From NCBI RefSeq assembly GCF_000011805.1, contig NC_006841.2: a stretch of 32,000 bases of DNA. The stretch is one strand, 5' to 3'. Every line of letters starts with the position of its first letter. Position 1 is the first letter of the stretch. Source of the stretch: Aliivibrio fischeri ES114 (GTDB taxonomy: Bacteria > Pseudomonadota > Gammaproteobacteria > Enterobacterales > Vibrionaceae). This document shows, one piece after another, positions 2 through 28,537 of this stretch. Below the pieces are notes generated by a model that was not told the origin of the DNA, did not search any database, and saw nothing but the letters and a program-made list of their open reading frames with translations. A program made the translations under genes and the position numbers.

Positions 2-1867
2 GCTCAAGCATTACTGGCGAACATGGCTTCTTTTTATGCCGTGTATCATGGTCCAGAAGGGTTAAAAACCATTGCTCGTCGTGTCCACCACTTTACAGCT
101 ATTGTGGCAAAAGCATTACAAACAGCAGGTTTTGAACTAGAGCACCAACATTTCTTTGATACCTTAACCGTTAAGACTGAACAACAGACAGATATTTTGT
201 ACACTAAAGCGTTGGCTTCAAGCATTAATCTACGCAAATTTGATACAAAATTAGGAATCAGTTTTGATGAAACCACTACGGTTTCGGATCTCGTTACTCT
301 ATTAGCGGTATTTGGTATCGATAATGCGGAATGTGAAACCTTATCTGCTGAAGTAGGAAAAGATGAATTTGCTGCCATTCCTAAACATTGTCAGAGAACA
401 TCTTCCTTTTTAACTCATCCAGTATTTAATACGTACCATAGTGAAACACAAATGCTACGTTATTTGAAAAAACTGGAAAACAAAGACTTCTCTTTAACTC
501 ATGGCATGATCCCACTAGGCTCTTGCACCATGAAATTAAACGCCGTTGCAGAAATGCTGCCTGTTACATGGCCAGAGTTTGGTGGTATTCACCCATTCGC
601 ACCACTAAACCAAGCTGCGGGTTATACAACACTAGCAACGTCACTAAAATCCATGTTATGTGAAATCACAGGTTATGATGAGTTTTCATTGCAACCAAAC
701 TCGGGCGCTTCTGGTGAATACGCAGGTCTAATTGCGATTCAACGTTACCATGAGAGCCGTGGTGACGCTCACCGTAATGTTTGCTTAATCCCAAGCTCTG
801 CACACGGTACTAACCCTGCCACTGCATCTATGGTATCGATGAAAGTTGTCGTAGTTAAATGCGATGAAAACGGCAATATCGATATGATCGATTTAGCTGA
901 GAAAATTGAAAAGCATCAAGAGAATCTATCAAGCATCATGATCACTTACCCTTCTACGCATGGCGTATATGAAGAGCAAGTACGTGAAGTGTGCGATATG
1001 GTACATGCAGCTGGTGGTCAAGTGTATCTTGATGGTGCCAATATGAATGCGCAAGTTGGTTTAACAAGCCCAGGTTTCATCGGCTCAGATGTATCTCACT
1101 TAAACCTACACAAAACCTTCTGTATTCCACACGGTGGTGGTGGTCCGGGTATGGGTCCTATTGGTGTTAAATCACACCTTGCGCCTTTCCTTCCGGGTCA
1201 CACTGAAAACGGTGTTCAAGGAATGGATTATGCTGTTTCAGCTGCGGATTTAGGCAGTGCCTCTATCTTACCAATATCATGGGCATATATTGCTATGATG
1301 GGTGAAATGGGTCTGACTGAAGCGACAAAAGTGGCGATATTAAATGCCAACTATGTAATGGAACGCCTACGCCCTCACTACCCTGTGTTATACCGTGGTA
1401 CCAATGGTCGTATTGCGCACGAATGCATTATAGATATTCGTCCATTAAAAGAGACGACAGGCATTAGTGAAGAAGACATTGCAAAACGATTAATGGACTT
1501 TGGTTTCCATGCTCCAACCATGTCATTCCCAGTTGCTGGAACCTTAATGGTTGAGCCAACGGAATCTGAAGACCTAGCTGAACTGGATCGTTTCTGTGAC
1601 GCGATGATAGCGATTCGTGAAGAGATGAATAAGGTTGAGCAAGGTGAATGGCCATTAGACAACAACCCACTTGTTAATGCACCACACACACAAGTCGATT
1701 TAATGTCTGATAGCTGGGAACATCCATATACTCGTGAAGTAGCATGCTTCCCATCATCACAATCAAAAGATTCTAAATACTGGCCTACCGTCAACCGTGT
1801 AGACAATGTGTATGGTGATCGTAATTTAATCTGTTCATGCCCAAGCATTGAGAATTACGAAGAGTAA
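2..1867 (+). CDS. gcvP: Glycine dehydrogenase (decarboxylating), glycine-cleavage P protein; C-terminal ~620 aa, 5' end lies outside the window
   Basis: The frame is open back to the window edge (AQALLAN precedes the Met at 23). Hallmark GcvP blocks are present: [25 protein letters not shown] (PLP-lysine region), [11 protein letters not shown] and [17 protein letters not shown]. Stop TAA at 1865-1867. Confidence 0.95.
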
Positions 1868-1897
1868 CACTCACCACTAACAACCTATCTATATAAA

Positions 1898-1929
1898 ATA
1901 GACAAGCGTATGTTTGTCTATTTTTTTTA
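1898..1929 (+). terminator. Rho-independent terminator of gcvP
   Basis: Perfect 8-bp stem ATAGACAA (1898-1905) / TTGTCTAT (1914-1921) with an 8-nt loop, running into a T8 tract (1921-1928). Lies 31 nt after the gcvP stop. Confidence 0.75.
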
Positions 1930-1935
1930 TCTAAA

Positions 1936-1990
1936 AAATGAATCATTCCTTTCCCTTTTGCTACATGAAAAAATCGTAATCATGATGTAA
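1936..1990. repeat. Left copy of a perfect 55-bp direct repeat (candidate attL / target duplication)
   Basis: AAATGAATCATTCCTTTCCCTTTTGCTACATGAAAAAATCGTAATCATGATGTAA is identical base-for-base to 9921-9975. The flanks diverge immediately on both sides. Confidence 0.95.
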
Positions 1991-2180
1991 TAGGATTAAT
2001 TAATCTACTCATAACTAGCGGAACTGAATTATTCTATTTGATGGTTCTAATACGTTTTTTGTAAAAATACGTCCCTTTAAGTAACCCTCTGATTATTAAT
2101 GCATTTATACGTCGCACTTAATATACAACATTAGTAACTTCTTTCATAAAGCAGCAAGTCCAACATATCCTTAAAGTTAA

Positions 2181-2888
2181 CTAACTATTAGGCAATTCTT
2201 CTTTGAGTTTTTGTAACTTTTTGCATAAATCATCAATATAATCACTAAGAAATTTTGACATATGTTGAACTTCACTTTTCTCTGTAAGCAAATCGTTAGC
2301 AGAACGAAAGTTCATTTCTTCTTCGGCCCATGAGAGCAAAAAATCATATAATTCTTGTTCTTCAACTGTTAATACGCTAGGAGGTACTTGATTACCTCTA
2401 TATAACTTCAATGTAGTAAACTCAACAAAATGTAGAGCTCTATACAAGTCAACTATCATCGAAAATGTATCCGCAGCTAAGGATTCATACTTTCCTAACT
2501 TGTTTCTTTCCCATACGTTAGCCTCGGGAGATAGAATACTCAGTGATTCAATAATTTTCTTAAAACGAGCCAATGGATAAGCATTGTTAGTCATATTACG
2601 TCTATGCCCCCATAGCTTCAAAATCAACTCAACGGATTGTTGTTGATATTTTTCTTTTTCCTCTGGATTCTCTGCATGTTCTGCCCTTTCCATCACCTCA
2701 ACTAGGTAATGAGACATCCACTTACCTAGAGTGTCACAACTATCTGAAAAGCCTAGCTCAGTCGCTAGGTGATGTCCAAGTACCAACACATCCTTCAGTG
2801 GTAAGGATTTCTCCAGTTCTTCTGAGAAGATAGAGTCTTGCGTATCGTGCTTCTTTTTCGGACTTTTCGTTATACTCTGTAATTCCAT
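2181..2888 (-). CDS. Hypothetical, predicted all-helical 235-aa protein; downstream partner of the giant NTPase
   Basis: ORF in the same orientation, overlapping the 3' end of the 2,147-aa ORF by 131 nt. An in-frame stop lies 3 codons upstream of the ATG at 2888. An alternative non-overlapping start is Met58 (ATG at 2717). I recognise no motif. Confidence 0.6.
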   Translation of the reverse strand: MELQSITKSPKKKHDTQDSIFSEELEKSLPLKDVLVLGHHLATELGFSDSCDTLGKWMSHYLVEVMERAEHAENPEEKEKYQQQSVELILKLWGHRRNMTNNAYPLARFKKIIESLSILSPEANVWERNKLGKYESLAADTFSMIVDLYRALHFVEFTTLKLYRGNQVPPSVLTVEEQELYDFLLSWAEEEMNFRSANDLLTEKSEVQHMSKFLSDYIDDLCKKLQKLKEELPNS

Positions 2889-5800
2889 CTTTAGTTACTC
2901 TTCGTGTTATTTCGACTTCAAGGATTAGATCAAAGCCAACTTTATCTAGGTATTGCTTAAGGTGATGTAATGACACTTTCAGGCGATGTCCATTAGAGAT
3001 TACATCTTCACCAAAAATGTATTCTTTCCACAGGGAGTTACCTCTTGTATCTCCCCATGCTTCATAATGAAATGCTCTTGCTCCATTAGAGGAGTCAAGC
3101 CAACTAACGGGATAGCTATCTGAACGACACAATCCTAGTATTTCAACGACATTTTCAGACGGAGTCGCTTCTATTAGGCGGACATCATGATTAAACACAT
3201 CCTTTTCATCTAGACGAGCATCACCAGAGTGTTCGTTGAGCCAACCACGTAATAAAAATGGGTCATCATCTATCTCAAATTCATGTCCAGCAGGTGGTAG
3301 ACGATAATCCCAAGAATCACGGGAAGTTTGTAGTGCCCGAAGCAATGATAATCCTGTATCTGGGCTAACAAGGGAAGAAGATATTCTCACACTGGAGCGA
3401 TGATTACTGGTGCGAATATCATGATATGAATCCACAACCAGACTTTCATCTTCGGAAGTTAAACCAAGTTCCAACTCAAAATCATTGTCGGTTATTGCTG
3501 CTACCCAATCTTCTGCCTCGACGGTAGGAGGAAGATGAAAACGTGTTTCTAGTGGTGTTGGACAACGAAGATCACTTGACCAGTGCGGGGGTTGAGTTAA
3601 TCCGTTTTGTCTCAAAAATCCGTTTAGTGTTCCATAATCGTCATCATCGTATTTAGGCTCAGATAACGCTTTTTCTGCCATTAGAGAGCCGAGGCTACAC
3701 CACATGGCGTGCCATTCTAGGTAATAACTGTGTCGCTCTATCGTCGGCATTGAGCCGTGACTATGGCTGTATAGGCTATAGTTTGCTCTTTCAAACTTAT
3801 ATTTTCGTGGCTCATTTTCCCATGTTGATAAATCAGAACCACTATTCCAGCGATCCATGATCCAAGCTTCCGCCTCATCTAGGAACATTTCTTGGTCAAC
3901 ATCAGAGAAGCACCTTATCGCGCCTGGATACACATAACTGAGAGTATCTAGCGAATCAAAGCTAAATCTTCTCTCTTTATTACCTTTGTGAAATCCGCCT
4001 CGATAAACTCTACCTTTCGATTTTTTGGTAGCTAATTCCGAAGTATTGATAGCATCTAATGCTGTAATTTCCTGTTCATCAAAATCAATAAAACCATTTG
4101 AAAGAAGTTTCATCAAACAAGATTTAGCAAAATGGCGCATCAATACATGCGGGAAGTCTTGGTCGGTAGCAATGCTCAACAACCAGCGTGCGACAGGTGC
4201 AATGGCTTCCGGTACCTCAGATGCAATTCGATCAAATGTAACAATGAGCCAAAGACGCGCTGACAACCAATAGAAAGGCACACTATCTTCACGATAGCCG
4301 GGCATAGATTTTCGCTCATACAAAGCGGTTAACGCCACAATTGTCTTAAAATCTCCCATTCTAGCAGACGCTCTAATACTATGTGCCGCTCGCCACCTCA
4401 CTCTAGTATCTATGTCGCCTAGGAACGAGTAGAGTTGGCATGCTAATGCTGATTCAACTAAAGACTCCGACTCAATTTTATCCGTTGGAAGTTTTAACCG
4501 TGTGGTTAGTCGCTGAACATAACGAATTGTGACATCAGCAATCTGCTGCTCACTGCAATAATCAGTCAACAGCCTGACTAACGAATAGAGCTTGGTCAAG
4601 GGCAAAGATTCGGCATTTTTTTCCAGGCCATCTAGCAGTATGCTAACCGCTTCTTCTTTATTTAAGTTAAGGCTATGAATAATATCTTTCAGCATCCGCT
4701 TGTCGTAACCATAATTTTCATCATAAGAGAACTCGCCCAAATGATTAGCAATTAAGACTGGTAGGTTTTCCTCTTTCCAAGCAGATATAGAGTGAGATGA
4801 CCCTATCCATAGGTTAATGCAGTCAATTAACGTATTAGCCCATGTATAGCCAAGATCATCAATTACGTGTTCATCGGTCAAGAAATCCAGAAAGGTAATA
4901 CGATCTTTTGACTCCAACTGACTGATTAAAGATCTCAATATGTCATCGTTGGTGATATATAAATCTTCACCTCTAGCTTCATTTCGCTTAGCGCGAATTG
5001 AAATCATAAAACTGGAAGGTGATTCAAAGGAAACGTCTGCTAATTTTATACCTTCAAGGAACTCGCGATCCTTTAATTTCCTAGTTGCCGAATCAAGTAT
5101 GTCATTGCTATTTTTTGACTTAGTACTTTTTTTGGTATGTGATTTAAATTCAACTAATTGATTAAGTGCTGAATGCCAATACTCACTACTATCGCAATAT
5201 GGAACTAACGCATTTAACTCCTGACATATTTTAGAACTACCGCTTCTGTTGAATCTCAATAACTCAGCTTTTGCAATTTCCTCTACAACTTGACTTGCAT
5301 CTTGAACACTTGTAACTGAAGCTAGTTTAACCACAAGCTCCTCATGTAAATCATCACAGAAATTGAGCAAAGATGCGGCCTGCGCAGAACTTATAGTTCC
5401 TTCTGTAACCCCTGTCGACATCAATGCAGGAAGAGTATCGCCGGCTTGAACTAAATCACAATCTTCCCAATAACCGATAAGGCTGATTGCTTGCGGCATA
5501 TCCAATATAGCAACAGCAGAAATTGCATCATTCCAGGGAAAATTATCATAGCCATCAAGAAGAGTGCCGTACTCCGTTATTATCGCAGCTATTTGACTTG
5601 CTATCTTCCGCGAATCTGTGGACGAAAAGTGCTTTTTAGCGTTTTTAGATAACGCTGAAAAAAGAGCCATGTCATGCATAGCATCGACATCAACGTCATT
5701 AGCGATATCAACCGCTATTTTAAATACTTCTCTGGCTTCGTCCTTATCCACAAACAGTAATATTCTGGACAAATCCAAAAGAATGCTGATCTTTTCGTTT

Positions 5801-8800
5801 GCTGCTGTTTTTAGAGCTGTTACTTCAACTGAGCGATCGTAAATATCCTTAACAACTAACGACCTCAACTCTGGTATTTTTATTAGATTTGCAATAACTT
5901 TACGCTGACCAGAAGAAAACACAGATGGCCATTGTTTAAACGCTCCCTTAGTTAGGCTTAGCACTATATTCATATTGATATCAGGCACAACAGACAGCTT
6001 GGCTAATGATAAAGAAAGGTGACTACATATGGATTCAAAATAGTGCTCCCTAGACATCCTCCAGGAATTTGCAAACAAAGAACCCAGTGCAGACTTAACT
6101 TTCTCTTCAGCATTTTCCGGCAAGATATTGGACAGCAAAACGTCCGCTCTAACAGCATAAACAGACATTAGACCTGACAGGCTTTCCTTTATCTCTTTAT
6201 GCTTTTCCGATAGTTTTTGCTTCTTCCTATTTTTCTCGGCCTCATTAAGATCTTCAGGTATAGGTGAATCAATCCAATAGGACTCTATTGTTACGTTGAG
6301 ACCACGATGGCGCATTAACAAAGAGTAAGCTCTAAAAGCGACATCGTTTTTAAGAATATCGTGTGTGTAGATGTTATTGACTAACCGCCAATTATCAGGG
6401 CATAGATATTCAAGAATTGGCTCAACTGAGGATAAATTCATTCCATTGGCAGCCAAAATTTCACAGCCATTAAGTAACATTTCCGCGTAGCTATAACCGT
6501 CTGAGCCTTCTGAAGTGTACCTTTCTAGCTCTTTTAGATCGCAATATTTCAATATATCCTTGTTGCACAGTGACTTTTCAAGAGAGGAACAATCAATACG
6601 GTAGCCAACAAGCGCCAAAGGTATTTTGAACAATGATGACCAAGGTTCTGGAATACAACCACTATCCAAAAACTCTTGAATTGCCGCTACCTTGTCCGAT
6701 AACAACAGACGATCCAATAATCTGTTCGCGATTTTGTAATGAATACTTTTGGGTTGCCAAATACAAATGAACTTGTATGCAGCCTCGTAACCTTCCATAT
6801 CCAACACTGAATGAGCAACAGCAGTAATATCCGCAAGCTCTAATGGCCACATATTTATATGTTGGTACCGACGATCGCTTTGTTCGGATTTTTGTCGTTC
6901 AATATCTTCACTTCTCCGATTAATCCATTCACGAAGAATACGTTTCTTTTCGCGGGCAGCGATAAAATCCCTGTCGGCTGCATCACGGGCAATAATATGC
7001 GATAAGAACCTACCATGGCTTTCATATGTTTTTGACGAGTAAAGTATATTTCGGCCTACAGTATCAGACGCAAAATGGACGGATAAATCGGGGTTTTCAG
7101 CGATAATTTTATCTACTGCATCATCTGTTTTTATCGCCTCTGCGCCAACCAGTAAGGTAAATATTGCATCTGCTGGCTCGCCCGCTGAACGACACACTTT
7201 CATCGCGAGTTGTAACCGCTGACGTTGTACTTCTCGGCGAATTATTTGGTCTTTTATAGCTTTTGGTGCTTCATTTTTCTCTATGATTTTTATGATTTCT
7301 TGGCCTTGCCCAGCTGAAAATAGCGCTGAAGCCAAATGCATGGCAGAATATTCATCACTTTCATGGTTAGCTTTGAAGTGTGCTGCTGAACGCTTATAAG
7401 CTTCCAGCAGCTTTGGTCGAGCTTTTTCTCTGACAAAGAACTCAACATCTTCATCAAGAAATCCCACCTTGCCATCAAGGACTCGCATTCCTGGCAGATC
7501 AGAGACAATATCACTAACCCTTTCTATTGATATCCCTGCAACACTAGCTAAATGTTGCTTTGGAACTGGTGACGGTAGTGCTACTAACGATGAACAAACG
7601 AGAGATAGGACGTCAGAATTACCCTCCTTCAAAATTGCTTCTTCAAAGCGGGCTTCAAAGATTTGTTCCAACCCCTTTCCATTGGGTCTTAAAAATTCAA
7701 TCGCTTTGCCCACATCTGATTTTGCATAGTCGAATGCGTAACTTTGTACTCGTGGATTTCGATTAGATAAATTATGAAAATCCTCTACCCATGCTTTGTC
7801 TACACCGGGAAATTGATTTAATACATTGAGCTCTGTTTCTTCCAATGAGAAGTTAGAAATTTCTACTGAGTTGTATTTAGATGGAATTGATAAGGAATCT
7901 AAACGTCCAGTTCTTGCAGAGATCATTAATCTAACATTAGCTGGCAGATTGCCTATTTTAATCAATTCATGAACGAAACTGATTTCTTCTGGCTTACATT
8001 GGTTTGCACCCGTCACAGAATTATCCGCAGCATCAATAACGACGACCAACAATGCATTATCTTCTTGTGCCTCTAAAACCTTGCTTGCACTTTCGATTCT
8101 TAAAGAAAAAGCCTTAATAAGATCTACTGAAGTATCCTGACTAATCAACAAAGGTAATCGCAATCGAGCCGAAGTTTCATTAATTAATTGCAAGTAGGCA
8201 TCTTTCGATCTATGCCGATAGGCTTCACTATCCATATAAGTGCCAGCGCCATAACAGTCATATGTAATCATAACTGAACCCTCGGGCAATAGATTTTCAA
8301 CCTGTTTTAGTACGGTCGTTTTTCCACTACCGCCTTCGCCATGCAAGCATATAAATTGATCTCCATTGACCATAGCAGTTTGTATCGCAACGGCAGCATT
8401 TCTATTAACAGGATTTTTCACTGCTTTGAGCCTTGAGGGGCATGGGAATAGAGCACGAGGGTCAGACACATTCATCCATGTCAACACCGTCTCTCTAGTG
8501 ATATAACTTCCTGTGGCCTCCGGCAGCATCAGCTTATGAATACGGTCTTTTAAATCCAACACAAACCCTCGATCAGCACTCAATGTAAGAGCTAGAATCT
8601 CATTAATTGCACTTTCCTCCTGCTCAAATCGAGAACCAGCGCCACAGTCAGAAAAGTCGAAGAGTTTAATAAATTTCTTGAAATTGGCTTTGTTAAGACC
8701 ACTAGCAATTCTTAGCGTTTCATACTTTTTGTTACTAAAATCGGAAAGCGACTTTTGAAGGTCTATACCAATAGGGCGATTACTGACTAGCCTAATTGTT

Positions 8801-9201
8801 AGCGTACCAGCACCAATCAGTTCTGGCCTAGCTTTTAATATTGCAGTAAATGAATCAGCAAGCCCTTTTACAATGCTGTTATTTGAAGATTTCGATTTAG
8901 AACTTGTTAGCTCCGAAACAGTCCAATTTTTTTCAGGCGTTGATGCAGAGTACTTTAGCTGCTCAATGACAACCTTTTCAGCTTGCTCTATTGTATGACC
9001 ACCATAAAATAAACCACAATCAACAGAGTCCCATTCCGTTAACTCCTGAGAATTTTCATCATCAAGATTTACGCCTTCAACTGTAACGGCAACCAATGAT
9101 GTGTCAGGTTCGAGTAACTGTAATGCTAGACGAAGTGCCCACCACTCATGAAAATCATCGCCAGTGTTGGAGGCTCTGGCACCTAGGTATTCTGCTTTCA
9201 T
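2758..9201 (-). CDS. Giant (2,147 aa) STAND-type P-loop NTPase with a nuclease-like N-terminal domain, long helical/HEAT-like repeat region and an unrecognised C-terminal module; Avs-like candidate defence protein
   Basis: Uninterrupted 6.4-kb ORF. The N-terminus (GDDFHEWWALRLALQLL, then E42, D58/D61, E80-Q-L-K83) resembles DUF4297/Cap4-type PD-(D/E)xK domains. Walker A is GEGGSGKTT (nt 8314-8340, aa 288-296). Walker B is LLVVVIDAADN (nt 8020-8052). An LMISARTGR block follows. A HEAT-like repeat GDIDTRVRWRAAHSIRASARMGD lies at nt 4351-4419. The last ~430 aa are rich in W, H and D and contain no motif I recognise. Confidence 0.85.
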   Translation of the reverse strand: MKAEYLGARASNTGDDFHEWWALRLALQLLEPDTSLVAVTVEGVNLDDENSQELTEWDSVDCGLFYGGHTIEQAEKVVIEQLKYSASTPEKNWTVSELTSSKSKSSNNSIVKGLADSFTAILKARPELIGAGTLTIRLVSNRPIGIDLQKSLSDFSNKKYETLRIASGLNKANFKKFIKLFDFSDCGAGSRFEQEESAINEILALTLSADRGFVLDLKDRIHKLMLPEATGSYITRETVLTWMNVSDPRALFPCPSRLKAVKNPVNRNAAVAIQTAMVNGDQFICLHGEGGSGKTTVLKQVENLLPEGSVMITYDCYGAGTYMDSEAYRHRSKDAYLQLINETSARLRLPLLISQDTSVDLIKAFSLRIESASKVLEAQEDNALLVVVIDAADNSVTGANQCKPEEISFVHELIKIGNLPANVRLMISARTGRLDSLSIPSKYNSVEISNFSLEETELNVLNQFPGVDKAWVEDFHNLSNRNPRVQSYAFDYAKSDVGKAIEFLRPNGKGLEQIFEARFEEAILKEGNSDVLSLVCSSLVALPSPVPKQHLASVAGISIERVSDIVSDLPGMRVLDGKVGFLDEDVEFFVREKARPKLLEAYKRSAAHFKANHESDEYSAMHLASALFSAGQGQEIIKIIEKNEAPKAIKDQIIRREVQRQRLQLAMKVCRSAGEPADAIFTLLVGAEAIKTDDAVDKIIAENPDLSVHFASDTVGRNILYSSKTYESHGRFLSHIIARDAADRDFIAAREKKRILREWINRRSEDIERQKSEQSDRRYQHINMWPLELADITAVAHSVLDMEGYEAAYKFICIWQPKSIHYKIANRLLDRLLLSDKVAAIQEFLDSGCIPEPWSSLFKIPLALVGYRIDCSSLEKSLCNKDILKYCDLKELERYTSEGSDGYSYAEMLLNGCEILAANGMNLSSVEPILEYLCPDNWRLVNNIYTHDILKNDVAFRAYSLLMRHRGLNVTIESYWIDSPIPEDLNEAEKNRKKQKLSEKHKEIKESLSGLMSVYAVRADVLLSNILPENAEEKVKSALGSLFANSWRMSREHYFESICSHLSLSLAKLSVVPDINMNIVLSLTKGAFKQWPSVFSSGQRKVIANLIKIPELRSLVVKDIYDRSVEVTALKTAANEKISILLDLSRILLFVDKDEAREVFKIAVDIANDVDVDAMHDMALFSALSKNAKKHFSSTDSRKIASQIAAIITEYGTLLDGYDNFPWNDAISAVAILDMPQAISLIGYWEDCDLVQAGDTLPALMSTGVTEGTISSAQAASLLNFCDDLHEELVVKLASVTSVQDASQVVEEIAKAELLRFNRSGSSKICQELNALVPYCDSSEYWHSALNQLVEFKSHTKKSTKSKNSNDILDSATRKLKDREFLEGIKLADVSFESPSSFMISIRAKRNEARGEDLYITNDDILRSLISQLESKDRITFLDFLTDEHVIDDLGYTWANTLIDCINLWIGSSHSISAWKEENLPVLIANHLGEFSYDENYGYDKRMLKDIIHSLNLNKEEAVSILLDGLEKNAESLPLTKLYSLVRLLTDYCSEQQIADVTIRYVQRLTTRLKLPTDKIESESLVESALACQLYSFLGDIDTRVRWRAAHSIRASARMGDFKTIVALTALYERKSMPGYREDSVPFYWLSARLWLIVTFDRIASEVPEAIAPVARWLLSIATDQDFPHVLMRHFAKSCLMKLLSNGFIDFDEQEITALDAINTSELATKKSKGRVYRGGFHKGNKERRFSFDSLDTLSYVYPGAIRCFSDVDQEMFLDEAEAWIMDRWNSGSDLSTWENEPRKYKFERANYSLYSHSHGSMPTIERHSYYLEWHAMWCSLGSLMAEKALSEPKYDDDDYGTLNGFLRQNGLTQPPHWSSDLRCPTPLETRFHLPPTVEAEDWVAAITDNDFELELGLTSEDESLVVDSYHDIRTSNHRSSVRISSSLVSPDTGLSLLRALQTSRDSWDYRLPPAGHEFEIDDDPFLLRGWLNEHSGDARLDEKDVFNHDVRLIEATPSENVVEILGLCRSDSYPVSWLDSSNGARAFHYEAWGDTRGNSLWKEYIFGEDVISNGHRLKVSLHHLKQYLDKVGFDLILEVEITRRVTKDGITEYNEKSEKEARYARLYLLRRTGEILTTEGCVGTWTSPSD

Positions 9202-9920
9202 ATAATGATAATTTCTACAAATCTCTTTTGAGAGCTATGGTTCTATTGGATTGCTAGCTAATCAACAAGAATAATTCAACCAAGCACATAATGATTGATT
9301 AAAAAAATTAGAGCAAGCCGCAGCTACTTAAAATGTGACAAATCGTAACTCTTAAATACTTTTAAAACAAAAGCTTGTTTATTAAACAATTAAATCTAAA
9401 TGGATAAAGTTGTAAAGCTATTTCGCAAATCAGATCCTCATGCCTCTTACACAGTAATATACTACGACGGTGTGGTAAGAACCTTCATCGACACAATTTT
9501 ACTAACTAACAGATATCCATCTGCCGGTAATAATTCTTTACAAAGGCTAGTACACCACAATACGAACGTAAACATAGTCAAGTACACACGACATTTATGT
9601 CCCATTCCCTAAAATCATTTTAATGGATCATTGTATGAAATCATTCAACGAGGCCTTTACAAAAACGTTTCTACCTACTTAACACTCTGTACTCGATTTT
9701 CTATATAGAGAAGTAGCTCTATGACAAACTGCGAATAAGTCAAGTAAAGCACCATCAAAAATTTCTAATCTGGTAAATTTTAATATTTCTGAGTATTAGA
9801 ACTTCACAATAAGTATATATCTGCCATATTTTTTAAAATCATAAAATAACTTATTGATTTACAAATTTACTGCTTTCAACTAGATAGCTGTATTCAATCA
9901 TCACTACTCTCCAATATGGG

Positions 9921-9975
9921 AAATGAATCATTCCTTTCCCTTTTGCTACATGAAAAAATCGTAATCATGATGTAA
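9921..9975. repeat. Right copy of the perfect 55-bp direct repeat (candidate attR)
   Basis: Identical to 1936-1990. Preceded by GGG (AAA at the left copy) and followed by CTCACTA (TAGGATT at the left copy). Confidence 0.95.
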
Positions 9976-10207
9976 CTCACTAATTTATAAATAAAAGATT
10001 TTATTTTTTAAAATAATGATAATGAGCACAAATTAATACTAGCAAGATGGTAACCTGTATGTCAGAATCCATCGCTTTTTTATGCTTGTTTATTAAGACG
10101 TTACATACAATTTATCTATTGATAGCATGATTTATCATTGTTGAAACCGTTAGTTTACGAGCCTTTTCAATATCTCAACAATGTAATCAATTATTGGAAT
10201 TTCTCAT

Positions 10208-12298
10208 TTGAAAATAGCTTTAAATCTTAATTTTGTTAGTAGTGCGCTATCAGGGTTAACCTCTGTGTTTAAACGTAAGAATTCGCAGTCTTCATCACGC
10301 TCTTACATTTATGATTTATCCGCAATTGCATTACTTCTTTTACCTCTAACGTTATCGAACGCAACCGCTGTTCTACTCGGGCATTTATTTAACTTTTTTG
10401 AATTTAAAGAACTTTCAAGCCTCCTTTTTCATTTATCGAATTTATTAATTAACATCTACCCACTCTCTTTTTGTGTCATTGCAGGGTATTACTTATCGCA
10501 CAAAACGACCTTTAGTAGCGCAACGTTTATCATCTACGCTTTAGCTCTGTTTTATCTGCTTTCAATAGAGAACGGTAGTTTATCTACGCCTTTCTATTTT
10601 CCTAATAACCCACTACTTGCTCTCTTAAGTGCTCTGATCACATTCATGTATTGCACTCGCTTTAATCTACAGCAACTAGAACCACAGGCTTTGGATTTTT
10701 CTTCTCGTTTGTTTAAGCACGTCTTCCACTTTTTTACTTTTATCAGCGCCGCCTTTTTATTGTCTAAATTGATGATGAAAGTCATTAATTACATGACGGC
10801 ATTAATCGGCAACATGAGTGCTGACCCTTTAACCTTTACTGGTGGGCTAATCTACCAAACCATTCTTGGGTTATTAGGCGCGATTGGCATTAATGGCCAC
10901 AACATGTTATTTGCCGTTAAACAGACCATCTATTCTGAAACTCAACAGAATATGGCGGATTGGGCAGCAGGAGAAGCAACGTTAAATATCATAAACCAAG
11001 GATTTTATGATGCGTTTATGTCAATGGGTGGCTCAGGGAACTCCATCAGTTTATTACTTTGTATTCTTCTATTTTCAAAAGAAAAAAATCATATTATGTT
11101 GGCTCTCGCAGCTTTCCCATTGGTAATGTTTAATATCAATGAGGTTTTGCTGTTTGGCTTACCAATCATCTTTAATCCATTACTGATCGTCCCATTTGTT
11201 GCGTTACCATTAATCAGTTTTTTAATTACTTATTTAGCTATTTTTTCAGGGGCAATATCTCCAGTCGTTAATATCGTTAACTGGATGACTCCACCATTAT
11301 TTAGTGGTTATGTTGCTATGGGAGAAAGCATAGAAGGCTCAATATTACAGCTTGTTATTATCATTGTAGGCATTTTTGTATATCGTCCTTTTTATCTTGC
11401 ATTTGCAGGGAAATACGCTCTCAATCACCCTGCGGTACTGAGTAATACGAATATAGAACAGTCGATTTTTAAAAGCCTATTAGATAACGTTAGAAGCTCA
11501 GCAGCGACGAGCTTAAAGCATTCTTCAACCCAGCAACGCTTATCGCGAATGCTGCACGAAGATGGCTTTGTAATGCATTATCAATTACTTCAATCTGTTG
11601 TTGAGAAAGACGTTATCTCTTTTGAGGCATTATTGCGCTATCAAGATCGTGAAGGCAATTTATGCCCGCCTACCTTTATTAGCGATTTCCAACTGCTTAA
11701 TATGATGCCAACACTGGATAAATTGGTTATTGATAAAGTCTTAACTGATATGCAGAAAATGGATCTCAACGAAGATCGACGTGTTGCTATCAATATTTCT
11801 GTCGCTTCCATTGAAGAACATGGTTTTGCAGAACACGTAATCGATCGTCTAAAGTTCTTTTCAATTCCACCACATTGGCTAGAAATTGAGATAACAGAAG
11901 AAGCTATTTTAAGTGATAACCATAATCTGCTAAGTACATTAGAGATCTTAAAGTCCCATGGAATTAAAATCGCTATGGATGATTTTGGAACCGGTTATGC
12001 TTCGTTCCCACATCTACTAAAATACCCATTTGATAAAATTAAGTTAGACCGCTCTTTGTTATTAGATGCTTCTACAACTAAAGGTAAACAGTTATACCAA
12101 TTAATCGCTCAAATGGGTGATGTAGCAAATTGTGAAGTGGTAGCAGAAGGTGTTGAAACTGAAGATGAATTTAAATTTGTTGCCGAGTGTGGTGTTGATA
12201 AAGTACAAGGCTTTTTGATTGCGCGACCACAACCGCTTTCTGAAGCGCTAAAATTAATAAAGCGCAACGATCAGATTGATACCAATCGTAATAAATAA
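10208..12298 (+). CDS. Membrane c-di-GMP phosphodiesterase: N-terminal PTS EIIC (lactose/cellobiose family)-like polytopic domain fused to a C-terminal EAL domain
   Basis: The N-terminal ~400 aa carry ChbC/CelB-type EIIC signatures: LLPLTL, AIGINGHN, GGSGNSISLLLCILLFSKEK, FNINEVLLFGLPIIFNPLLIVPFV. The C-terminal domain has an intact EAL motif set: EALLRY, INIS, EIEITE, DDFGTGYAS, KLDRS, EGVETEDE, QGFLIARP. The start is TTG at 10208 and there is no upstream in-frame ATG. An in-frame GTG at 10265 is an alternative start. Confidence 0.85.
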   Translation: MKIALNLNFVSSALSGLTSVFKRKNSQSSSRSYIYDLSAIALLLLPLTLSNATAVLLGHLFNFFEFKELSSLLFHLSNLLINIYPLSFCVIAGYYLSHKTTFSSATFIIYALALFYLLSIENGSLSTPFYFPNNPLLALLSALITFMYCTRFNLQQLEPQALDFSSRLFKHVFHFFTFISAAFLLSKLMMKVINYMTALIGNMSADPLTFTGGLIYQTILGLLGAIGINGHNMLFAVKQTIYSETQQNMADWAAGEATLNIINQGFYDAFMSMGGSGNSISLLLCILLFSKEKNHIMLALAAFPLVMFNINEVLLFGLPIIFNPLLIVPFVALPLISFLITYLAIFSGAISPVVNIVNWMTPPLFSGYVAMGESIEGSILQLVIIIVGIFVYRPFYLAFAGKYALNHPAVLSNTNIEQSIFKSLLDNVRSSAATSLKHSSTQQRLSRMLHEDGFVMHYQLLQSVVEKDVISFEALLRYQDREGNLCPPTFISDFQLLNMMPTLDKLVIDKVLTDMQKMDLNEDRRVAINISVASIEEHGFAEHVIDRLKFFSIPPHWLEIEITEEAILSDNHNLLSTLEILKSHGIKIAMDDFGTGYASFPHLLKYPFDKIKLDRSLLLDASTTKGKQLYQLIAQMGDVANCEVVAEGVETEDEFKFVAECGVDKVQGFLIARPQPLSEALKLIKRNDQIDTNRNK

Positions 12299-14497: not shown

Positions 14498-16399
14498 ATG
14501 ATTACTGACTTAATCAATGAACAACTCATTTGTTTAAACCTGAAAGCTCAAACTAAAGACGACGTTTTTTCTGAAATGGCTGAACACTTGTTCCAACAAG
14601 GCCGTATCAGTGATAAACAACAATTTTTAGCGGATATCTACGCTCGTGAAGAGTTAGGAAATACCGGATTTGAAGAAGGCGTTGCCCTTCCTCATGCTAA
14701 AAGTGCGGCGGTTATTTCTCCTGCTGTAATGATTGGTGTTAGCAAAGAAGGCATCGAATACGGTGCTGAAGATGGTCTTCCATCTCGCCTATTCTTCATG
14801 ATCGCCTCACCAGCAAATGGTGCAGATCACCACATTGAAGTACTTGCAGAACTATCATCTAAGTTAATCGAAGACGGCTTTATTGAGAAATTCTTAAACA
14901 CAACTTCTTCAAAAATGGCACTTGAATTACTGCTTCAAAAAACTGACGAAGCAGAAGCTGTTGAAGCGAATAAAGGGTTCTTGATTGGCGTTACAGGTTG
15001 CCCTGCAGGTATTGCACATACTTACCTTGCATCTGAAGCACTTGAGAAAGGTGCCGCTGAATTAGGTTATCAAATCAAAGTAGAAACGAACGGTTCTATT
15101 GGTGTTAAAAATAGTCCAACAGCCGAAGAAATCGAAAAAGCAGAAGCGATCATCGTGGCTTGTGATAAGCAAGTGGATCTGAATCGTTTTGCTGGTAAAA
15201 AATTAATTCAAACTGGCGTAAAAGCGCCAATTAAAGATGCGAAAGGGTTAATTACTCAATCACTTTCTCAACCACCTTTTGTGGCTGATAACTCTAATGC
15301 ATCGTCTGAAACAAAAGACAAAGCATCACAAACTCGTTCTGATCTATACCGTTACCTAATGAATGGCGTATCTCACATGATCCCATTCGTTGTTACTGGT
15401 GGTCTATTGATCGCACTGGCTCTAGCGCTTGGTGGTCAACCAACAGAAAGTGGAATGGCAATTCCTCCTGGTAGCCTATGGAATAAAGTGCTTGATGTTG
15501 GTGTAGTTGCCTTTACTTTAATGATCCCTGTTTTAGCCGGTTACATTGCTTACGCTATTGCTGATCGTCCTGCTCTTGCTCCTGGCTTAATTGGCGGTTG
15601 GATTGCAAACAATGGTTCATTCTACGGTGCCGAAGCAGGTACTGGTTTCATTGGTGCTATCATCGCTGGTTTATTAGTGGGTTACTTCGTTAAATTTGTT
15701 GCCAACATTAACTACAACAAATTTATTCAACCGCTAGTTCCTATTATGATTGCTCCTATTGCAGGCTCTCTATTTATCTCAGGTCTGTTTATCTTTGTTA
15801 TTGGTGCTCCAATCGCAAGCTTAATGGATTCATTAACTGCGCTGCTTACTACAATGAGTACAGGTAACGTTGTATTGCTTGGTATCGTACTGGGTGGTAT
15901 GGCTGGCTTTGATATGGGTGGTCCATTCAACAAAGTAGCCTTCCTATTCTCTGTAGGTATGATTGCAAGTGGTCAAACTCAATTTATGGGTGCAATGGCA
16001 TGTGCGATTCCTGTTGCTCCACTAGGTATGTCTTTAGCAACCGTTATTGGTCGTAAATTCAATATCTTTGAAGAATCTGAAACCGAAGCAGGTAAAGCAG
16101 CTGGTGCAATGGGCTTAGTCGGTATCTCTGAAGGTGCGATTCCATTTGCAGCTCAAGATCCATTATCTGTTATCCCTGCGAACATGCTTGGTTCAATCAC
16201 TGCTGCAGTAATGGCTTTCTCATTTGGTATTACAAACAGTGTTGCTCACGGTGGTCCAGTTGTTGCGCTTCTTGGTGCAATGAACAAACCAGTACTAGCA
16301 ATTGCATGTATGGCAGCAGGTACTGTTGTGACTGCTCTAGTTTGTGTATCACTTAAAAAGATGCGCCAGAACAAAAATTCTGCTCCTGTAGCTGCTTAA
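14498..16399 (+). CDS. PTS fructose-family permease, domain order EIIA-EIIB-EIIC; possibly mannose-specific given the adjacent manA
   Basis: The EIIA(Fru/Mtl type) His motif is GFEEGVALPHAKS. The EIIB Cys motif is GVTGCPAGIAHTYLASEAL. The EIIC carries GGPFNKVA and GISEGAIPFA. The substrate call is context inference only. Confidence 0.9.
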   Translation: MITDLINEQLICLNLKAQTKDDVFSEMAEHLFQQGRISDKQQFLADIYAREELGNTGFEEGVALPHAKSAAVISPAVMIGVSKEGIEYGAEDGLPSRLFFMIASPANGADHHIEVLAELSSKLIEDGFIEKFLNTTSSKMALELLLQKTDEAEAVEANKGFLIGVTGCPAGIAHTYLASEALEKGAAELGYQIKVETNGSIGVKNSPTAEEIEKAEAIIVACDKQVDLNRFAGKKLIQTGVKAPIKDAKGLITQSLSQPPFVADNSNASSETKDKASQTRSDLYRYLMNGVSHMIPFVVTGGLLIALALALGGQPTESGMAIPPGSLWNKVLDVGVVAFTLMIPVLAGYIAYAIADRPALAPGLIGGWIANNGSFYGAEAGTGFIGAIIAGLLVGYFVKFVANINYNKFIQPLVPIMIAPIAGSLFISGLFIFVIGAPIASLMDSLTALLTTMSTGNVVLLGIVLGGMAGFDMGGPFNKVAFLFSVGMIASGQTQFMGAMACAIPVAPLGMSLATVIGRKFNIFEESETEAGKAAGAMGLVGISEGAIPFAAQDPLSVIPANMLGSITAAVMAFSFGITNSVAHGGPVVALLGAMNKPVLAIACMAAGTVVTALVCVSLKKMRQNKNSAPVAA

Positions 16400-16470: not shown

Positions 16471-17667
16471 ATGAACGCATTAAAACCTCAAACTTTTTAC
16501 CCAATGACCAACGTAATTCAAGATTATGCTTGGGGAAGTCACACTTCAATCGAAGCCTTATTTGATATAAAAAACAACACAGGTAAACCTCAAGCTGAAC
16601 TTTGGATGGGTGCTCATCCTAATGGTTGTTCTGCGGTTACTGTTAATGGCGACTCTGTTCTTCTATCTGATTTAATCAATCAAGATAAAGAAGCTTTTTT
16701 ATCAAAAACAACAGCTGATGCCTTTGGTGAATTACCGTACCTTTTTAAAGTACTGGCAGCAGAAAAAGCCCTTTCTATTCAAGTTCACCCAAATAAACAA
16801 CAAGCGGTTGATGGGTTTGAAAAAGAAGAAAAAACAGGCATTGCCCTAACGGCTTTCAATCGTAACTACAAAGATAACAACCACAAACCTGAATTGGTTT
16901 ACGCATTAACTGACTATAAAGCGATGAACGGCTTTAAAGATTATCAAGAAATCGTCTCTTTGTTCTCTGCAATGCAGCTTCCAACTATTGCATCTTATGT
17001 TGATGACTTAGCTCAGGAACCAAATTCAAACGGTTTACAACGTTTCTTTAAAGCAATTCTTTCTTTAGAAAATGAAACCAAAGAGCGTGCTGTTGCTGAA
17101 TTACTGGATTACGCATCAAACAGCACTGATGAGCTATTTGTGCTGCTTCAAGATCTTGCGATTCAATACCCGAATGACGTGGGTTTATTTGCTCCACTTA
17201 TGCTTAATGTTATTACGTTAAAACCAGGTGAAGCAATGTTCCTAAGCGCATGTACACCGCACGCTTATATTCATGGAACAGGGTTAGAAATCATGGCAAA
17301 CTCTGACAACGTATTACGTGCAGGGTTAACACCTAAATACATGGATATTGATGAATTGATGTCTTGCACTGAGTTTGTAAGCCAACCGCTTTCATCATTA
17401 CTTACTCAACCAAATACGGTTGATGGTGGTATGAGCTACCCTATCCCTGTTAATGACTTTAAATTCTCAGTATTTACCGCAACAGATGCGTTAACGCTAG
17501 AAACCAACAGCGCAGAAATCTTATTCGCTATTGATAGTGATTTAACCTTAACTCATGAAAATGGGGAGTCGGTAACAATAGCAAAAGGACACTCTGTTTT
17601 TGTTCCTGCTTATGCAAAACGTTACTCGTTAACCAGCAGTGGTAACGTAGCGAGAGCGTATAACTAA
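16471..17667 (+). CDS. manA: Mannose-6-phosphate isomerase, class I
   Basis: 398 aa with type I PMI signatures: YAWGS, ELWMGAHP, LSIQVHPNK, HAYIHGTGLEIMANSDNVLRAGLTPKY. Confidence 0.93.
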   Translation: MNALKPQTFYPMTNVIQDYAWGSHTSIEALFDIKNNTGKPQAELWMGAHPNGCSAVTVNGDSVLLSDLINQDKEAFLSKTTADAFGELPYLFKVLAAEKALSIQVHPNKQQAVDGFEKEEKTGIALTAFNRNYKDNNHKPELVYALTDYKAMNGFKDYQEIVSLFSAMQLPTIASYVDDLAQEPNSNGLQRFFKAILSLENETKERAVAELLDYASNSTDELFVLLQDLAIQYPNDVGLFAPLMLNVITLKPGEAMFLSACTPHAYIHGTGLEIMANSDNVLRAGLTPKYMDIDELMSCTEFVSQPLSSLLTQPNTVDGGMSYPIPVNDFKFSVFTATDALTLETNSAEILFAIDSDLTLTHENGESVTIAKGHSVFVPAYAKRYSLTSSGNVARAYN

Positions 17668-17668
17668 A

Positions 17669-17780
17669 GGGTCTAGGGTCTAGGGTCTAGGGTCTAGGGT
17701 CTAGGGTCTAGGGTCTAGGGTCTAGGGTCTAGGGTCTAGGGTCTAGGGTCTAGGGTCTAGGGTCTAGGGTCTAGGGTCTA
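17669..17780 (+). repeat. Perfect heptanucleotide microsatellite (GGGTCTA)x16
   Basis: 112 bp in 16 exact units, starting 2 nt after the manA TAA and ending 7 nt before the terminator hairpin. Stop codons occur in all six frames. Confidence 0.97.
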
Positions 17781-17787
17781 GCAGAAT

Positions 17788-27714: not shown

Positions 27715-27789
<75 letters not shown>

Positions 27790-28045: not shown

Positions 28046-28537
28046 TTATTCGCAGTATGCGTATTGGTAATCACGAAAGAATAACTCTTTTACTATCTCC
28101 ATTGACATTGTTTTGCTAATTGCCAAGCGACTTAAAATAGTTAACGGCGGAAAACACAATGAATACCGATCATCATCTAAATGGTTGACCACACTTTTAT
28201 GCTGAAGGTATTCAAAATCACCACTTTCAGCAATCGCTTGTACGCCAGTATCAAGTGCATGGATCAGTCCATGTTTATCTGTTCCCCAAATGCCATTGGT
28301 TTCTCGCTCTTCTATTCGTTCACTTAACTCTTTTATATTGGCAATTAAGGGAGTAAAAGGAACGGGACGAATGTTATCTACACCATTATTCTTTCTATCA
28401 CTTCCAAGGGTTACAATTTTGGGGTTTGAGTGCCAGTTTTCAAATAAAGTTTTTCTTGTTGTTTCATTATATTACCCATAAAACTGCGTAGAAAATAAAT
28501 AAATCCCTTCAGCTAACACTGCTTTATTACTCATCAT
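28046..28537 (-). pseudogene. 164-codon ORF interrupted by a single in-frame TAA at codon 22 (nt 28474-28472); unknown function; translationally coupled to the upstream lipoprotein gene
   Basis: Hand translation: MMSNKAVLAEGIYLFSTQFYG*YNETTRKTLFENWHSNPKIVTLGSDRKNNGVDNIRPVPFTPLIANIKELSERIEERETNGIWGTDKHGLIHALDTGVQAIAESGDFEYLQHKSVVNHLDDDRYSLCFPPLTILSRLAISKTMSMEIVKELFFRDYQYAYCE*. The ATG (28537-28535) overlaps the TGA of the upstream gene (ATGA) and is preceded by AAGGAGGA. The 141 codons after the stop are open but contain no ATG, GTG or TTG start near their beginning. Confidence 0.5.

What the first reader, a model, noticed from the sequence alone, without database searches (positions are those of the whole stretch)
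1936..9975. 7.9-kb insertion bounded by a perfect 55-bp direct repeat, with no recombinase of its own
The 55-mer at 1936-1990 is repeated exactly at 9921-9975, and the flanks diverge immediately. The left copy starts 7 nt after the T tract of the gcvP terminator. The 7,930 bp between the copies contain only the giant NTPase gene, its partner and AT-rich non-coding DNA. There is no integrase or transposase ORF of 60 aa or more in any frame, and I saw no terminal inverted repeats. A 55-bp duplication is far longer than typical transposon target-site duplications. It fits an att core duplicated by site-specific integration with a recombinase supplied in trans, or a cassette that can be lost by recombination between the repeats. 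The 55-mer also contains a sigma70-like TTGCTA-N17-CATGAT, so the duplication may supply outward or inward transcription.
Basis: seen in the sequence. Interest (0 to 1): 0.7.

Follow-up and report, generated by a model that had tools for sequence, protein, structure and literature searches.

The report
Avs3 defence island with 55-bp target duplication
A 7.9-kb anti-phage (Avs3) gene cassette sits just downstream of gcvP in Aliivibrio fischeri, bracketed by an exact 55-bp duplication of the host's own intergenic DNA. Other strains have this spot empty or filled with different defence genes, so it is an ordinary recombination-driven defence hotspot with one odd detail, not a new mobile element.

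Summary
The 55-mer at 1936-1990 recurs exactly at 9921-9975. The 7,930 bp between the copies hold only a two-gene AVAST type-3 system (Avs3a, 2147 aa; Avs3b, 202 aa) plus non-coding DNA, with no recombinase.

The genome is Aliivibrio fischeri of ES114 type. Six conspecific loci have an empty site: gcvP terminator, one 56-nt allele of the repeat, then CTCACTAATTTATAAA. The repeat is native, species-specific, single-copy intergenic DNA, not a dispersed family.

The att-site reading is not supported:
- Two other strains carry different cargo in the same 125-bp stretch (a Lamassu system; three unknown genes). These have different junctions, only one 56-mer, and are not flanked by it.
- Those cargos begin at the gcvP stop codon and carry another Vibrio's gcvP terminator.
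- The closest Avs3 relative (Vibrio chagasii, 93% nt) also lies next to gcvP.
- Both repeat copies carry one lineage-specific allele of a hypervariable centre, which fits duplication of the resident target.
- Between island-bearing strains, the island plus about 840 bp of left flank is about 0.1% divergent, against 2.5-4.6% outside. This indicates spread by homologous recombination.

Best reading: a recombinase-free defence replacement hotspot, with the 55-bp repeat a by-product of an illegitimate insertion. How the duplication arose remains inferred.

The parts
23..1867 (+). 3' part of gcvP (glycine dehydrogenase), the core gene on the left flank
   Evidence: Pfam GcvP2_C at 1.9e-61 and GDC-P. 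The C-terminal 614 aa are identical to A. fischeri ES114 GcvP, UniProt Q5DZM3.
1895..1928 (+). Native gcvP intrinsic terminator (hairpin plus T tract)
   Evidence: Terminator scan. Present in the empty-site strains.
1936..1990 (.). Left copy of the 55-bp direct repeat (native intergenic DNA)
   Evidence: Homologous to the single 56-nt copy at empty sites.
1991..2180 (.). Island-specific non-coding left end. Its origin is unknown, and it is not shared with other Avs3 loci.
   Evidence: Homology to V. chagasii starts only at 2215. No match to any fetched locus or to plasmids.
2181..2789 (-). avs3b (202 aa)
   Evidence: PADLOC Avs3b at 5.5e-20. NCBIfam NF041817 at 1.4e-22, below the curated cut-off. 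Gene called in public assemblies.
2758..9201 (-). avs3a (2147 aa STAND NTPase)
   Evidence: PADLOC Avs3a at 8.6e-218 over the full length. NCBIfam NF041816 at 7.5e-243, residues 9-2133, 809 bits against a cut-off of 2800. Sub-threshold Pfam AAA_22/NACHT/NB-ARC hits around residues 271-457, covering the nucleotide-binding region.
2215..9364 (-). Conserved Avs3 cargo module (genes plus 163 bp upstream), shared at 93% nt identity with the V. chagasii locus
   Evidence: blastn of L039 against the window.
9202..9920 (.). Upstream non-coding region. 9365-9920 is island-specific and of unknown origin. It contains a doubtful 70-aa ORF at 9400-9612.
   Evidence: No family hits. No relatives in metagenomes. 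No match to other loci.
9921..9975 (.). Right copy of the 55-bp direct repeat
   Evidence: Followed by the native flank CTCACTAATTTATAAA, as at empty sites.
9976..10207 (.). Native intergenic DNA upstream of the EIIC-EAL gene
   Evidence: Collinear with empty-site strains.
10208..12298 (+). PTS-EIIC/EAL-domain gene, the core gene on the right flank
   Evidence: Pfam EAL at 6.9e-66 and PTS_EIIC at 7.8e-17. Adjacent to gcvP in all empty-site strains and in 9 other Aliivibrio species.

Best explanation
The first ~125 bp after the gcvP stop codon of A. fischeri chromosome II is a recombinase-free defence 'replacement' hotspot. Strains have it empty or occupied by unrelated defence cassettes. The ES114-type allele carries an AVAST type-3 system (Avs3a/Avs3b). 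Its closest relatives ride as cargo in Tn7-like transposons, a CRISPR-associated transposon and ICEs, and one also lies next to gcvP in Vibrio chagasii. Shown: the 55-mer pair is a duplication of the resident native target sequence. Inferred: it arose when foreign DNA was joined into the chromosome by two illegitimate (microhomology or repair-type) joints whose positions on the target overlapped by 55 bp. The other two cargos have joints that instead deleted about 50 and about 25 bp of the same stretch. Shown by SNP pattern: the allele later moved between strains by ordinary homologous recombination in the flanks, probably by natural transformation (that route is inferred). The repeats have no dedicated function. 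They do permit rare RecA-dependent precise loss of the island.
For: Cargo identity: PADLOC and NCBIfam Avs3a/Avs3b. Empty sites with one 56-nt copy: L011, L012, L013, L015, L016, L018. The repeat is native and species-specific: it is absent from the homologous intergenic region of 9 other Aliivibrio species. It is single-copy: k=31 Logan contigs run through it in empty strains and break at it only in island strains, and it occurs only at this locus in 136 loci. Alternative cargos in the same spot: Lamassu (LmuA x2, LmuC, LmuB) in L134 and a three-gene unknown cassette in L132/L133. Each has only one 56-mer, to its right, and different junctions. These cargos start at the gcvP stop codon and carry foreign gcvP 3' flanks and terminators: 83% over 86 nt to V. 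chagasii, and 81% over 58 nt to V. agarilyticus. Their gcvP itself is A. fischeri type to the last codon. The closest Avs3 module (93% nt) is also adjacent to gcvP, in V. chagasii. The centre of the repeat differs among five alleles, yet both copies in island strains share one allele. Window vs L029: 46 SNPs in 1-1000, 11 SNPs in about 1100-9975, then 2.5-4% divergence from 9982 on. The L029 flank carries the L013/L132-type allele. There is no recombinase, no terminal inverted repeats and no dif-like motif.
Against: The insertion event itself is not observed. No donor sequence was found for the island's unique ends (1991-2214, 9365-9920), so microhomology at the joints cannot be checked. A 55-bp duplication is unusual for illegitimate recombination, and I found no documented precedent in the papers searched. 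The right edge of the low-divergence block in L029 falls within 22 bp of the right repeat arm (9960-9981). A site-specific crossover would also predict this. No empty site carrying the island lineage's own 55-nt allele was sampled. Only about 12 A. fischeri loci were examined.
Confidence: 0.55

Rival explanations
1. The 55-mers are attL/attR of a site-specific integrative element. Its recombinase is either supplied in trans (CIME- or IME-like) or was lost by internal deletion, leaving only the selected defence genes.
For: An exact long direct repeat with a single copy at empty sites. The common empty-site allele has a perfect 8-4-8 hairpin in its centre, as many recombination sites do. The boundary of the transferred block in L029 lies inside or next to the right repeat arm. 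Avs3 relatives are typical cargo of mobile elements.
Against: No recombinase in the island or within 10 kb in any strain. Other cargos at the spot do not use the repeat. Both copies carry the same lineage-specific centre, whereas attP x attB exchange with a foreign element would give reciprocal chimeras or need a 55/55 match to one strain's allele. The left flank co-transfers with the island. The hairpin is weakened or lost in other alleles. The repeat was not found in viral or metagenome collections or in plasmids.
Confidence: 0.2
2. Campbell-type integration. A circular DNA that already carried the 55-mer (for example an imprecisely excised or plasmid-captured piece of an A. fischeri chromosome) integrated by one RecA- or phage-SSAP-mediated crossover at the 55-bp homology, duplicating it.
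For: This would give two identical copies of one allele flanking the insert. 55 bp is within the range usable by RecA or recombineering proteins (general knowledge).
Against: No plasmid or phage relative of the island or its ends was found. It requires a prior event that put an A. fischeri-specific intergenic 55-mer on a circle. The other islands at the site show no such duplication.
Confidence: 0.12
3. The island is a remnant of a Tn7-like or other transposon that targeted the gcvP 3' region and has since lost its transposition genes and ends.
For: The 94%-identical Avs3a in V. chagasii lies between gcvP and a tnsA-tnsB-tnsC-tniQ-tnsD cluster. Other relatives sit in a type I-F3 CAST and in a tnsD/tnsE element.
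Against: No tns genes, no TGT...ACA ends and no repeated TnsB-type sites at either island end. Tn7-family target duplications are 5 bp, not 55 (general knowledge). In V. chagasii the tns genes point away from gcvP, with Avs3 outside the likely right end. None of 80 Vibrionaceae species representatives has tns genes within 10 kb of gcvP.
Confidence: 0.04
4. The 55-mer is a dispersed intergenic repeat, a chance match or an assembly artefact.
For: None beyond the AT-rich context.
Against: 0 chance matches in shuffles. It occurs only at this locus in 136 loci. Contigs traverse it in empty strains. Both copies are present in two independent assemblies.
Confidence: 0.01

Closest known systems
Core-gene-flanked defence hotspots / 'replacement islands' (e.g. 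P. aeruginosa cDHS, E. coli and Vibrio hotspots; PMC10250203), and HGT hotspots exchanged by recombination in flanking persistent genes (PMC12359135)
   Same: Same two core genes flank unrelated, mutually exclusive defence cassettes or nothing. There are no mobility genes. Flank SNP patterns indicate homologous recombination.
   Different: One allele is bracketed by a 55-bp duplication of the target. Two cassettes carry the gcvP terminator of other Vibrio species, pointing to cross-genus exchange between equivalent gcvP-downstream sites. The site has no tRNA or tmRNA gene.
Recombinase-less att-flanked elements (CIMEs of Streptococcus ICESt1/3; IMEX elements using XerCD at dif). Named from memory.
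   Same: A direct repeat on both sides and no recombinase of its own.
   Different: No partner ICE or integrase at the site in any strain. No dif-like motif. Other cargos at the site ignore the repeat. The repeat is one strain lineage's allele of native DNA.
AVAST type 3 (Avs3a/Avs3b) anti-phage STAND NTPase system
   Same: Full-length matches to both PADLOC and NCBIfam Avs3a/Avs3b profiles. Two-gene architecture with overlapping genes.
   Different: Scores are below NCBI's equivalog cut-offs (809 vs 2800 bits; 81 vs 200), so this is a divergent subgroup. Activity has not been tested.
Tn7-like transposons and type I-F3 CASTs carrying defence cargo
   Same: The same Avs3 module (79-94% aa identity) is cargo of, or a neighbour to, such elements in V. 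chagasii, V. anguillarum and a seawater metagenome contig.
   Different: No tns or cas genes here, no transposon ends, and a 55-bp rather than 5-bp duplication.
Homology-facilitated / double illegitimate recombination during natural transformation (Acinetobacter, Streptococcus; cited in PMC12359135, PMC3240628)
   Same: Insertion of foreign DNA without a recombinase. Junctions lie at or near a conserved anchor gene. Variable loss of target DNA, as seen for the Lamassu and three-gene cassettes.
   Different: Those events are described mainly with deletions. A 55-bp target duplication is not a documented outcome that I could find.

Membership tests
Site-specific integrative island (att-flanked) | Recombinase gene inside or next to the element | tested here: not met
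   Only Avs3a/b. No Pfam hit for any other ORF of 50 aa or more. None within 10 kb in the related loci.
Site-specific integrative island (att-flanked) | Direct repeats equal to the single attB copy at empty sites | tested here: met
   Empty sites have one 56-nt allele at the same position. The centre differs by 5 substitutions and 1 indel.
Site-specific integrative island (att-flanked) | The same att core is used by other elements or cargos at the site | tested here: not met
   The L132/L133 and L134 cargos lie left of a single 56-mer, with other junctions.
Site-specific integrative island (att-flanked) | Excised circle or precise empty site carrying the island lineage's own allele | not testable with these tools
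   No reads are available. All samples with the identical EAL allele have contigs breaking at the repeat.
Transposon (IS/Tn, including Tn7-like) | Terminal inverted repeats or end-binding repeats, a transposase, and a short fixed target duplication | tested here: not met
   No inverted repeat between the ends. No transposase. The duplication is 55 bp.
IMEX (XerCD/dif-exploiting element) | dif-like 28-bp site in the flanking repeat | tested here: not met
   Best match 13-14 of 28 to V. cholerae and E. coli dif, no better than shuffles. The dif sequences were recalled from memory.
Dispersed intergenic repeat (REP/MITE) | Many copies at unrelated loci | tested here: not met
   Only this locus in 136 loci. 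Contigs traverse it in empty strains. 0 hits in the viral and metagenome scans. A whole-genome count was not possible.
AVAST type 3 (Avs3) | Full-length similarity of the large protein to Avs3a, including the STAND NTPase core | tested here: met
   PADLOC 8.6e-218, residues 8-2133. NCBIfam NF041816 at 7.5e-243, but 809 bits is below the 2800-bit equivalog cut-off. Sub-threshold Pfam AAA_22/NACHT/NB-ARC hits around residues 271-457, covering the nucleotide-binding region.
AVAST type 3 (Avs3) | Adjacent small partner Avs3b | tested here: met
   PADLOC 5.5e-20. NCBIfam NF041817 at 1.4e-22, below the cut-off. The partner is conserved next to Avs3a in all relatives.
AVAST type 3 (Avs3) | Protection against phage | not testable with these tools
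   Requires a phage challenge of ES114 against a deletion mutant.
Defence hotspot / replacement island | Same core flanks, with empty and alternative unrelated cargos among conspecifics | tested here: met
   Empty (6 loci), Avs3 (ES114 type, L029), Lamassu (L134), three unknown genes (L132/133).

The most novel reading that the evidence does not exclude
The turnover at this spot is enzymatic rather than accidental. An unidentified trans-acting recombinase or targeting system (for example a Tn7-like TnsD/TniQ, as found beside the V. chagasii copy, or a host or phage integrase) recognises the gcvP 3' flank or the hairpin-bearing 56-mer across Vibrionaceae. The 55-mer pair would then be attL/attR of a recombinase-less, trans-mobilised defence cassette. 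This would explain why two cassettes start exactly at the gcvP stop codon, why the nearest Avs3 relative is also next to gcvP, and why the L029 recombination boundary falls within the repeat arm.
Probability: 0.12. Interest if true: 0.6.

Novelty: new member of a known kind. Interest (0 to 1): 0.3.

Why it matters
This locus gives the model squid symbiont A. fischeri (ES114 type) a strain-specific Avs3 anti-phage system. It also identifies the gcvP / EIIC-EAL intergenic region as a defence hotspot with at least three alternative cargos, one of them an uncharacterised three-gene cassette. The foreign gcvP terminators carried by two cassettes, and the gcvP-adjacent Avs3 in V. chagasii, suggest that defence cassettes are swapped between equivalent 'downstream-of-a-core-gene' sites of different genera without any mobile-element machinery. 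Such exchange has been hard to demonstrate directly. The 55-bp duplication is a small but clean case for studying how such insertions are made, and it is experimentally accessible because A. fischeri is naturally transformable.

Tried and rejected
- **Plasmid or phage origin.** Megablast and blastn of the island and its upstream end against PLSDB found nothing. Viral and metagenome scans for the repeat gave 0 hits.
- **orf70 (9400-9612) as a hidden mobility or regulatory gene.** It has no Pfam or PHROG hit, no relatives in JGI metagenomes, and only two weak 31-aa viral matches that I did not follow. It is probably not a gene.
- **Island ends as remnants of gcvP, its terminator or other islands.** Sensitive blastn against all fetched loci gave nothing.
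- **Long direct repeats around Avs3 in other genomes.** None were found.
- **Tn7-type ends.** Not found.
- **dif-like or integron-like motifs in the repeat.** No dif-like match. I saw no integron attC core by eye.
- **Rfam.** Nothing in the island.
- **Promoter in the repeat.** Not supported.
- **The variant centre as a foreign attP signature.** I first considered this, then rejected it once L132 and L134 showed that the centre is polymorphic within the species.
- **More A. fischeri alleles through gcvP cluster members.** The attempt failed and used the last look-up.
- **V. chagasii empty site.** None could be obtained, so the extent of its insertion is undefined.
Full report
**Observation.** The 55-mer at 1936-1990 is repeated exactly at 9921-9975. 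There is no third copy even at 3 mismatches, and none in 100 shuffles. The flanks diverge immediately on both sides. The left copy begins 7 nt after the T tract of the gcvP terminator. The 7,930 bp between the copies hold one 2147-aa ORF (2758-9201, minus strand), a 202-aa partner overlapping it by 32 nt (2181-2789, minus strand) and AT-rich non-coding DNA. No other ORF of 50 aa or more has a Pfam hit, and no inverted repeat links the two ends.

**Cargo.** The two genes match the Avs3a and Avs3b profiles of PADLOC (8.6e-218 over the full length; 5.5e-20) and of NCBIfam (NF041816, 7.5e-243; NF041817, 1.4e-22). Both NCBIfam scores are below the strict equivalog cut-offs. Sub-threshold Pfam hits to AAA_22, NACHT and NB-ARC mark the NTPase region of the large protein around residues 271-457. 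This is a divergent AVAST type-3 anti-phage system. Its activity is inferred from family membership only.

**Organism and empty sites.**
- The GcvP fragment is identical to that of Aliivibrio fischeri ES114, UniProt Q5DZM3.
- Exact-protein look-ups recovered the same island at the same place in GCA_001029395.1 (essentially identical to the window) and in a different strain, GCA_001640325.1 (L029).
- Six conspecific loci (L011, L012, L013, L015, L016, L018) have gcvP and the EIIC-EAL gene adjacent.
- The single copy differs from the window's 55-mer only in a 14-nt centre: TTACGGTTAAATAACC against CTAC-ATGAAAAAATC. In the common allele this centre forms a perfect 8-4-8 hairpin.

**Nature of the repeat.**
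- It is native A. fischeri intergenic DNA. The homologous spacer of nine other Aliivibrio species, all of them empty at this site, does not contain it.
- It is single-copy. Logan contigs built with k=31 run straight through it in empty strains. In island strains they break exactly at it, and some contigs span 1961-9950, which is the island plus 30 nt of each copy.
- A 20-mer from the repeat occurs only at this locus in 136 fetched loci. The repeat gave no hit in viral or JGI metagenome collections.
- Its centre is hypervariable within the species: five alleles are seen among the strains. Both copies in every island-bearing strain nevertheless carry the same allele. The left flank of those strains also has private variants (G at 1908, T8). 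Both copies therefore derive from one resident allele. This is what a duplication of the target predicts. It is not what exchange between a chromosomal attB and a foreign attP predicts.

**Other cargos at the same spot.**
- Look-ups with two other A. fischeri GcvP sequences gave strains with different content between gcvP and the EIIC-EAL gene.
- L134 (GCA_009727625.1) holds a Lamassu system: a protease-type LmuA, an MBL-type LmuA, LmuC and LmuB (LmuB at 1.8e-300).
- L132/L133 (GCA_021394875.1) hold three genes of 406, 440 and 200 aa with no hit in Pfam, PADLOC or NCBIfam.
- Neither cargo is flanked by the repeat. Each has a single 56-mer to its right. Each is inserted between the gcvP stop codon and the native terminator, with about 50 bp (L132) or about 25 bp (L134) of native DNA deleted.
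- Both cargos start at the stop codon and carry the gcvP 3' flank and terminator of another Vibrio: 83% over 86 nt to V. chagasii for L132, and 81% over 58 nt to V. agarilyticus for L134.
- In both strains gcvP itself is A. fischeri type to its last codon.

**Relatives of the cargo.**
- Avs3a has close homologues across Gammaproteobacteria.
- The nearest, 94% aa and 93% nt over window 2215-9364, is in V. chagasii. It also lies next to the 3' end of gcvP in the same orientation, with a tnsA-tnsB-tnsC-tniQ-tnsD cluster on its other side.
- Other relatives sit beside a type I-F3 CRISPR-associated transposon in V. anguillarum (CRISPR repeats), near the end of a tnsD/tnsE element, inside an ICE, or alone among core genes.
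- None has long flanking direct repeats.
- The window's island ends (1991-2214 and 9365-9920) are unique and match nothing I could reach.

**Spread within the species.** Between the window and L029 there are 46 SNPs in 1-1000 but only 11 from about 1100 to 9975. Divergence of 2.5-4% resumes at 9982, where L029 carries the flank allele seen in L013 and L132. So the island moved, or was retained, together with about 840 bp of gcvP-side flank. That indicates homologous recombination. The right edge of the shared block falls within 9960-9981. One reading is that recombination tracts coming from empty-site donors must stop where homology ends. A crossover inside the repeat arm would look the same, so this point does not discriminate between the models.

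**Mechanism.**
- Shown: a strain-variable Avs3 island in a multi-cargo, recombinase-free hotspot; a duplication of resident native DNA on both sides; and transfer with flanking DNA.
- Inferred: the original insertion was an illegitimate, repair-type event whose two joints overlapped by 55 bp on the target. It is one of three independent insertions in a 125-bp stretch, with target changes of +55, about -50 and about -25 bp.
- Inferred: cassettes are exchanged between equivalent gcvP-downstream sites of different Vibrionaceae, with later conspecific recombination restoring native flanks up to the heterology.
- The repeats allow rare RecA-dependent precise loss. There is no evidence that they do anything else. 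The proposed promoter in the repeat fails the scan, and the Avs3a upstream region is part of the conserved module.
- I put 0.55 on this reading, 0.2 on a true att site with a lost or trans-acting recombinase, 0.12 on Campbell-type integration of a circle carrying the 55-mer, and little on a transposon remnant or an artefact.

**Comparison and novelty.** The locus behaves like the core-gene-flanked defence hotspots or 'replacement islands' described in Pseudomonas, E. coli and Vibrio (PMC10250203), and like HGT hotspots exchanged through recombination in flanking persistent genes (PMC12359135). It fails the tested criteria for an integrative element (no recombinase, no shared att use), a transposon, an IMEX element and a dispersed repeat. 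No paper in the library links gcvP to a Tn7-like target or to a defence hotspot. It is a new member of a known kind. Two details are mildly unusual: the 55-bp target duplication, and the hitch-hiking foreign gcvP terminators.

**Limits.** Only about 12 A. fischeri loci were sampled. The genome-wide copy number of the repeat is inferred from contig behaviour, not counted. The donor of the island ends is unknown. No read-level data were available to look for excision.

Noticed in passing
L132:13038-16177 (also L133): A three-gene cassette (406, 440 and 200 aa) occupies the same defence hotspot in A. fischeri GCA_021394875.1. It has no Pfam, PADLOC or NCBIfam hit, so it is a candidate uncharacterised defence system.
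   Followed up: partly
L134:13195-19221: A Lamassu system with two different LmuA-type effectors (trypsin-like protease and metallo-beta-lactamase fold), plus LmuC and LmuB, sits at the same spot in A. fischeri GCA_009727625.1.
   Followed up: partly
L132:12869-12955 and L134:12869-12945: The gcvP-proximal ends of these two islands are the gcvP 3' UTR and terminator of other Vibrio species (V. chagasii-like, V. agarilyticus-like). They are joined exactly at the A. fischeri gcvP stop codon, which in L134 is changed from TAA to TAG.
   Followed up: yes
L039:1220-7829 and 17363-17402: V. chagasii has a Tn7-like tnsA/B/C-tniQ-tnsD cluster about 9 kb from gcvP, with Avs3 and two unknown genes in between. 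It also has a 20-bp tandem duplication (CTTTGTCTAAAATTAGAATG x2) directly after the gcvP stop, possibly a footprint of an earlier insertion or loss.
   Followed up: partly
L041:3345-9000: In V. anguillarum, a type I-F3 CRISPR-associated transposon module (tniQ, cas8/5, cas7, cas6, and 28-nt repeats at 8447-8594) lies immediately upstream of an 88%-identical Avs3a/b pair.
   Followed up: partly
L069:11993-13102; L085:19991-20755; L061:12664-14498: Defence- or toxin-type genes lie directly downstream of gcvP in other Vibrionaceae species representatives: SoFic in V. rumoiensis, a JetD-like gene in Enterovibrio qingdaonensis, and a HipA-like gene (motifs read by eye; only a weak PADLOC PDC-M03A hit) plus an HTH gene in Vibrio sp. 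CK2-1. Gene content after gcvP is highly variable across the family.
   Followed up: partly
window 17668-17781: A perfect heptamer array (AGGGTCT) x16.3 lies between convergent PTS-EIIA and mannose-6-phosphate isomerase genes. Alignments to other strains break or shift here, so copy number varies between strains.
   Followed up: partly
window 28534-30962: Two tandem paralogous genes (400 and 408 aa, minus strand) are 77-95% identical over 1.2-kb units.
   Followed up: no
window 15370-16192 vs 19693-20473: Diverged paralogous PTS EIIC segments (70-87% identity) lie 4.3 kb apart.
   Followed up: no
window 27715-27789 (-): A lone tRNA-Gly(TCC) gene. No island is associated with it in this window.
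   Followed up: no
L015:5401-6906, L018:2042-3547: The EIIC-EAL gene is called as only 501 aa in some empty-site strains, against 696 aa here. This suggests a truncation or frameshift polymorphism in the right-flank gene.
   Followed up: no
L135:271-363, L136:8001-8093: Two IMG/VR contigs give weak 31-aa matches (45% identity) to the C-terminal half of the doubtful 70-aa ORF at window 9400-9612. These are probably chance matches.
   Followed up: no
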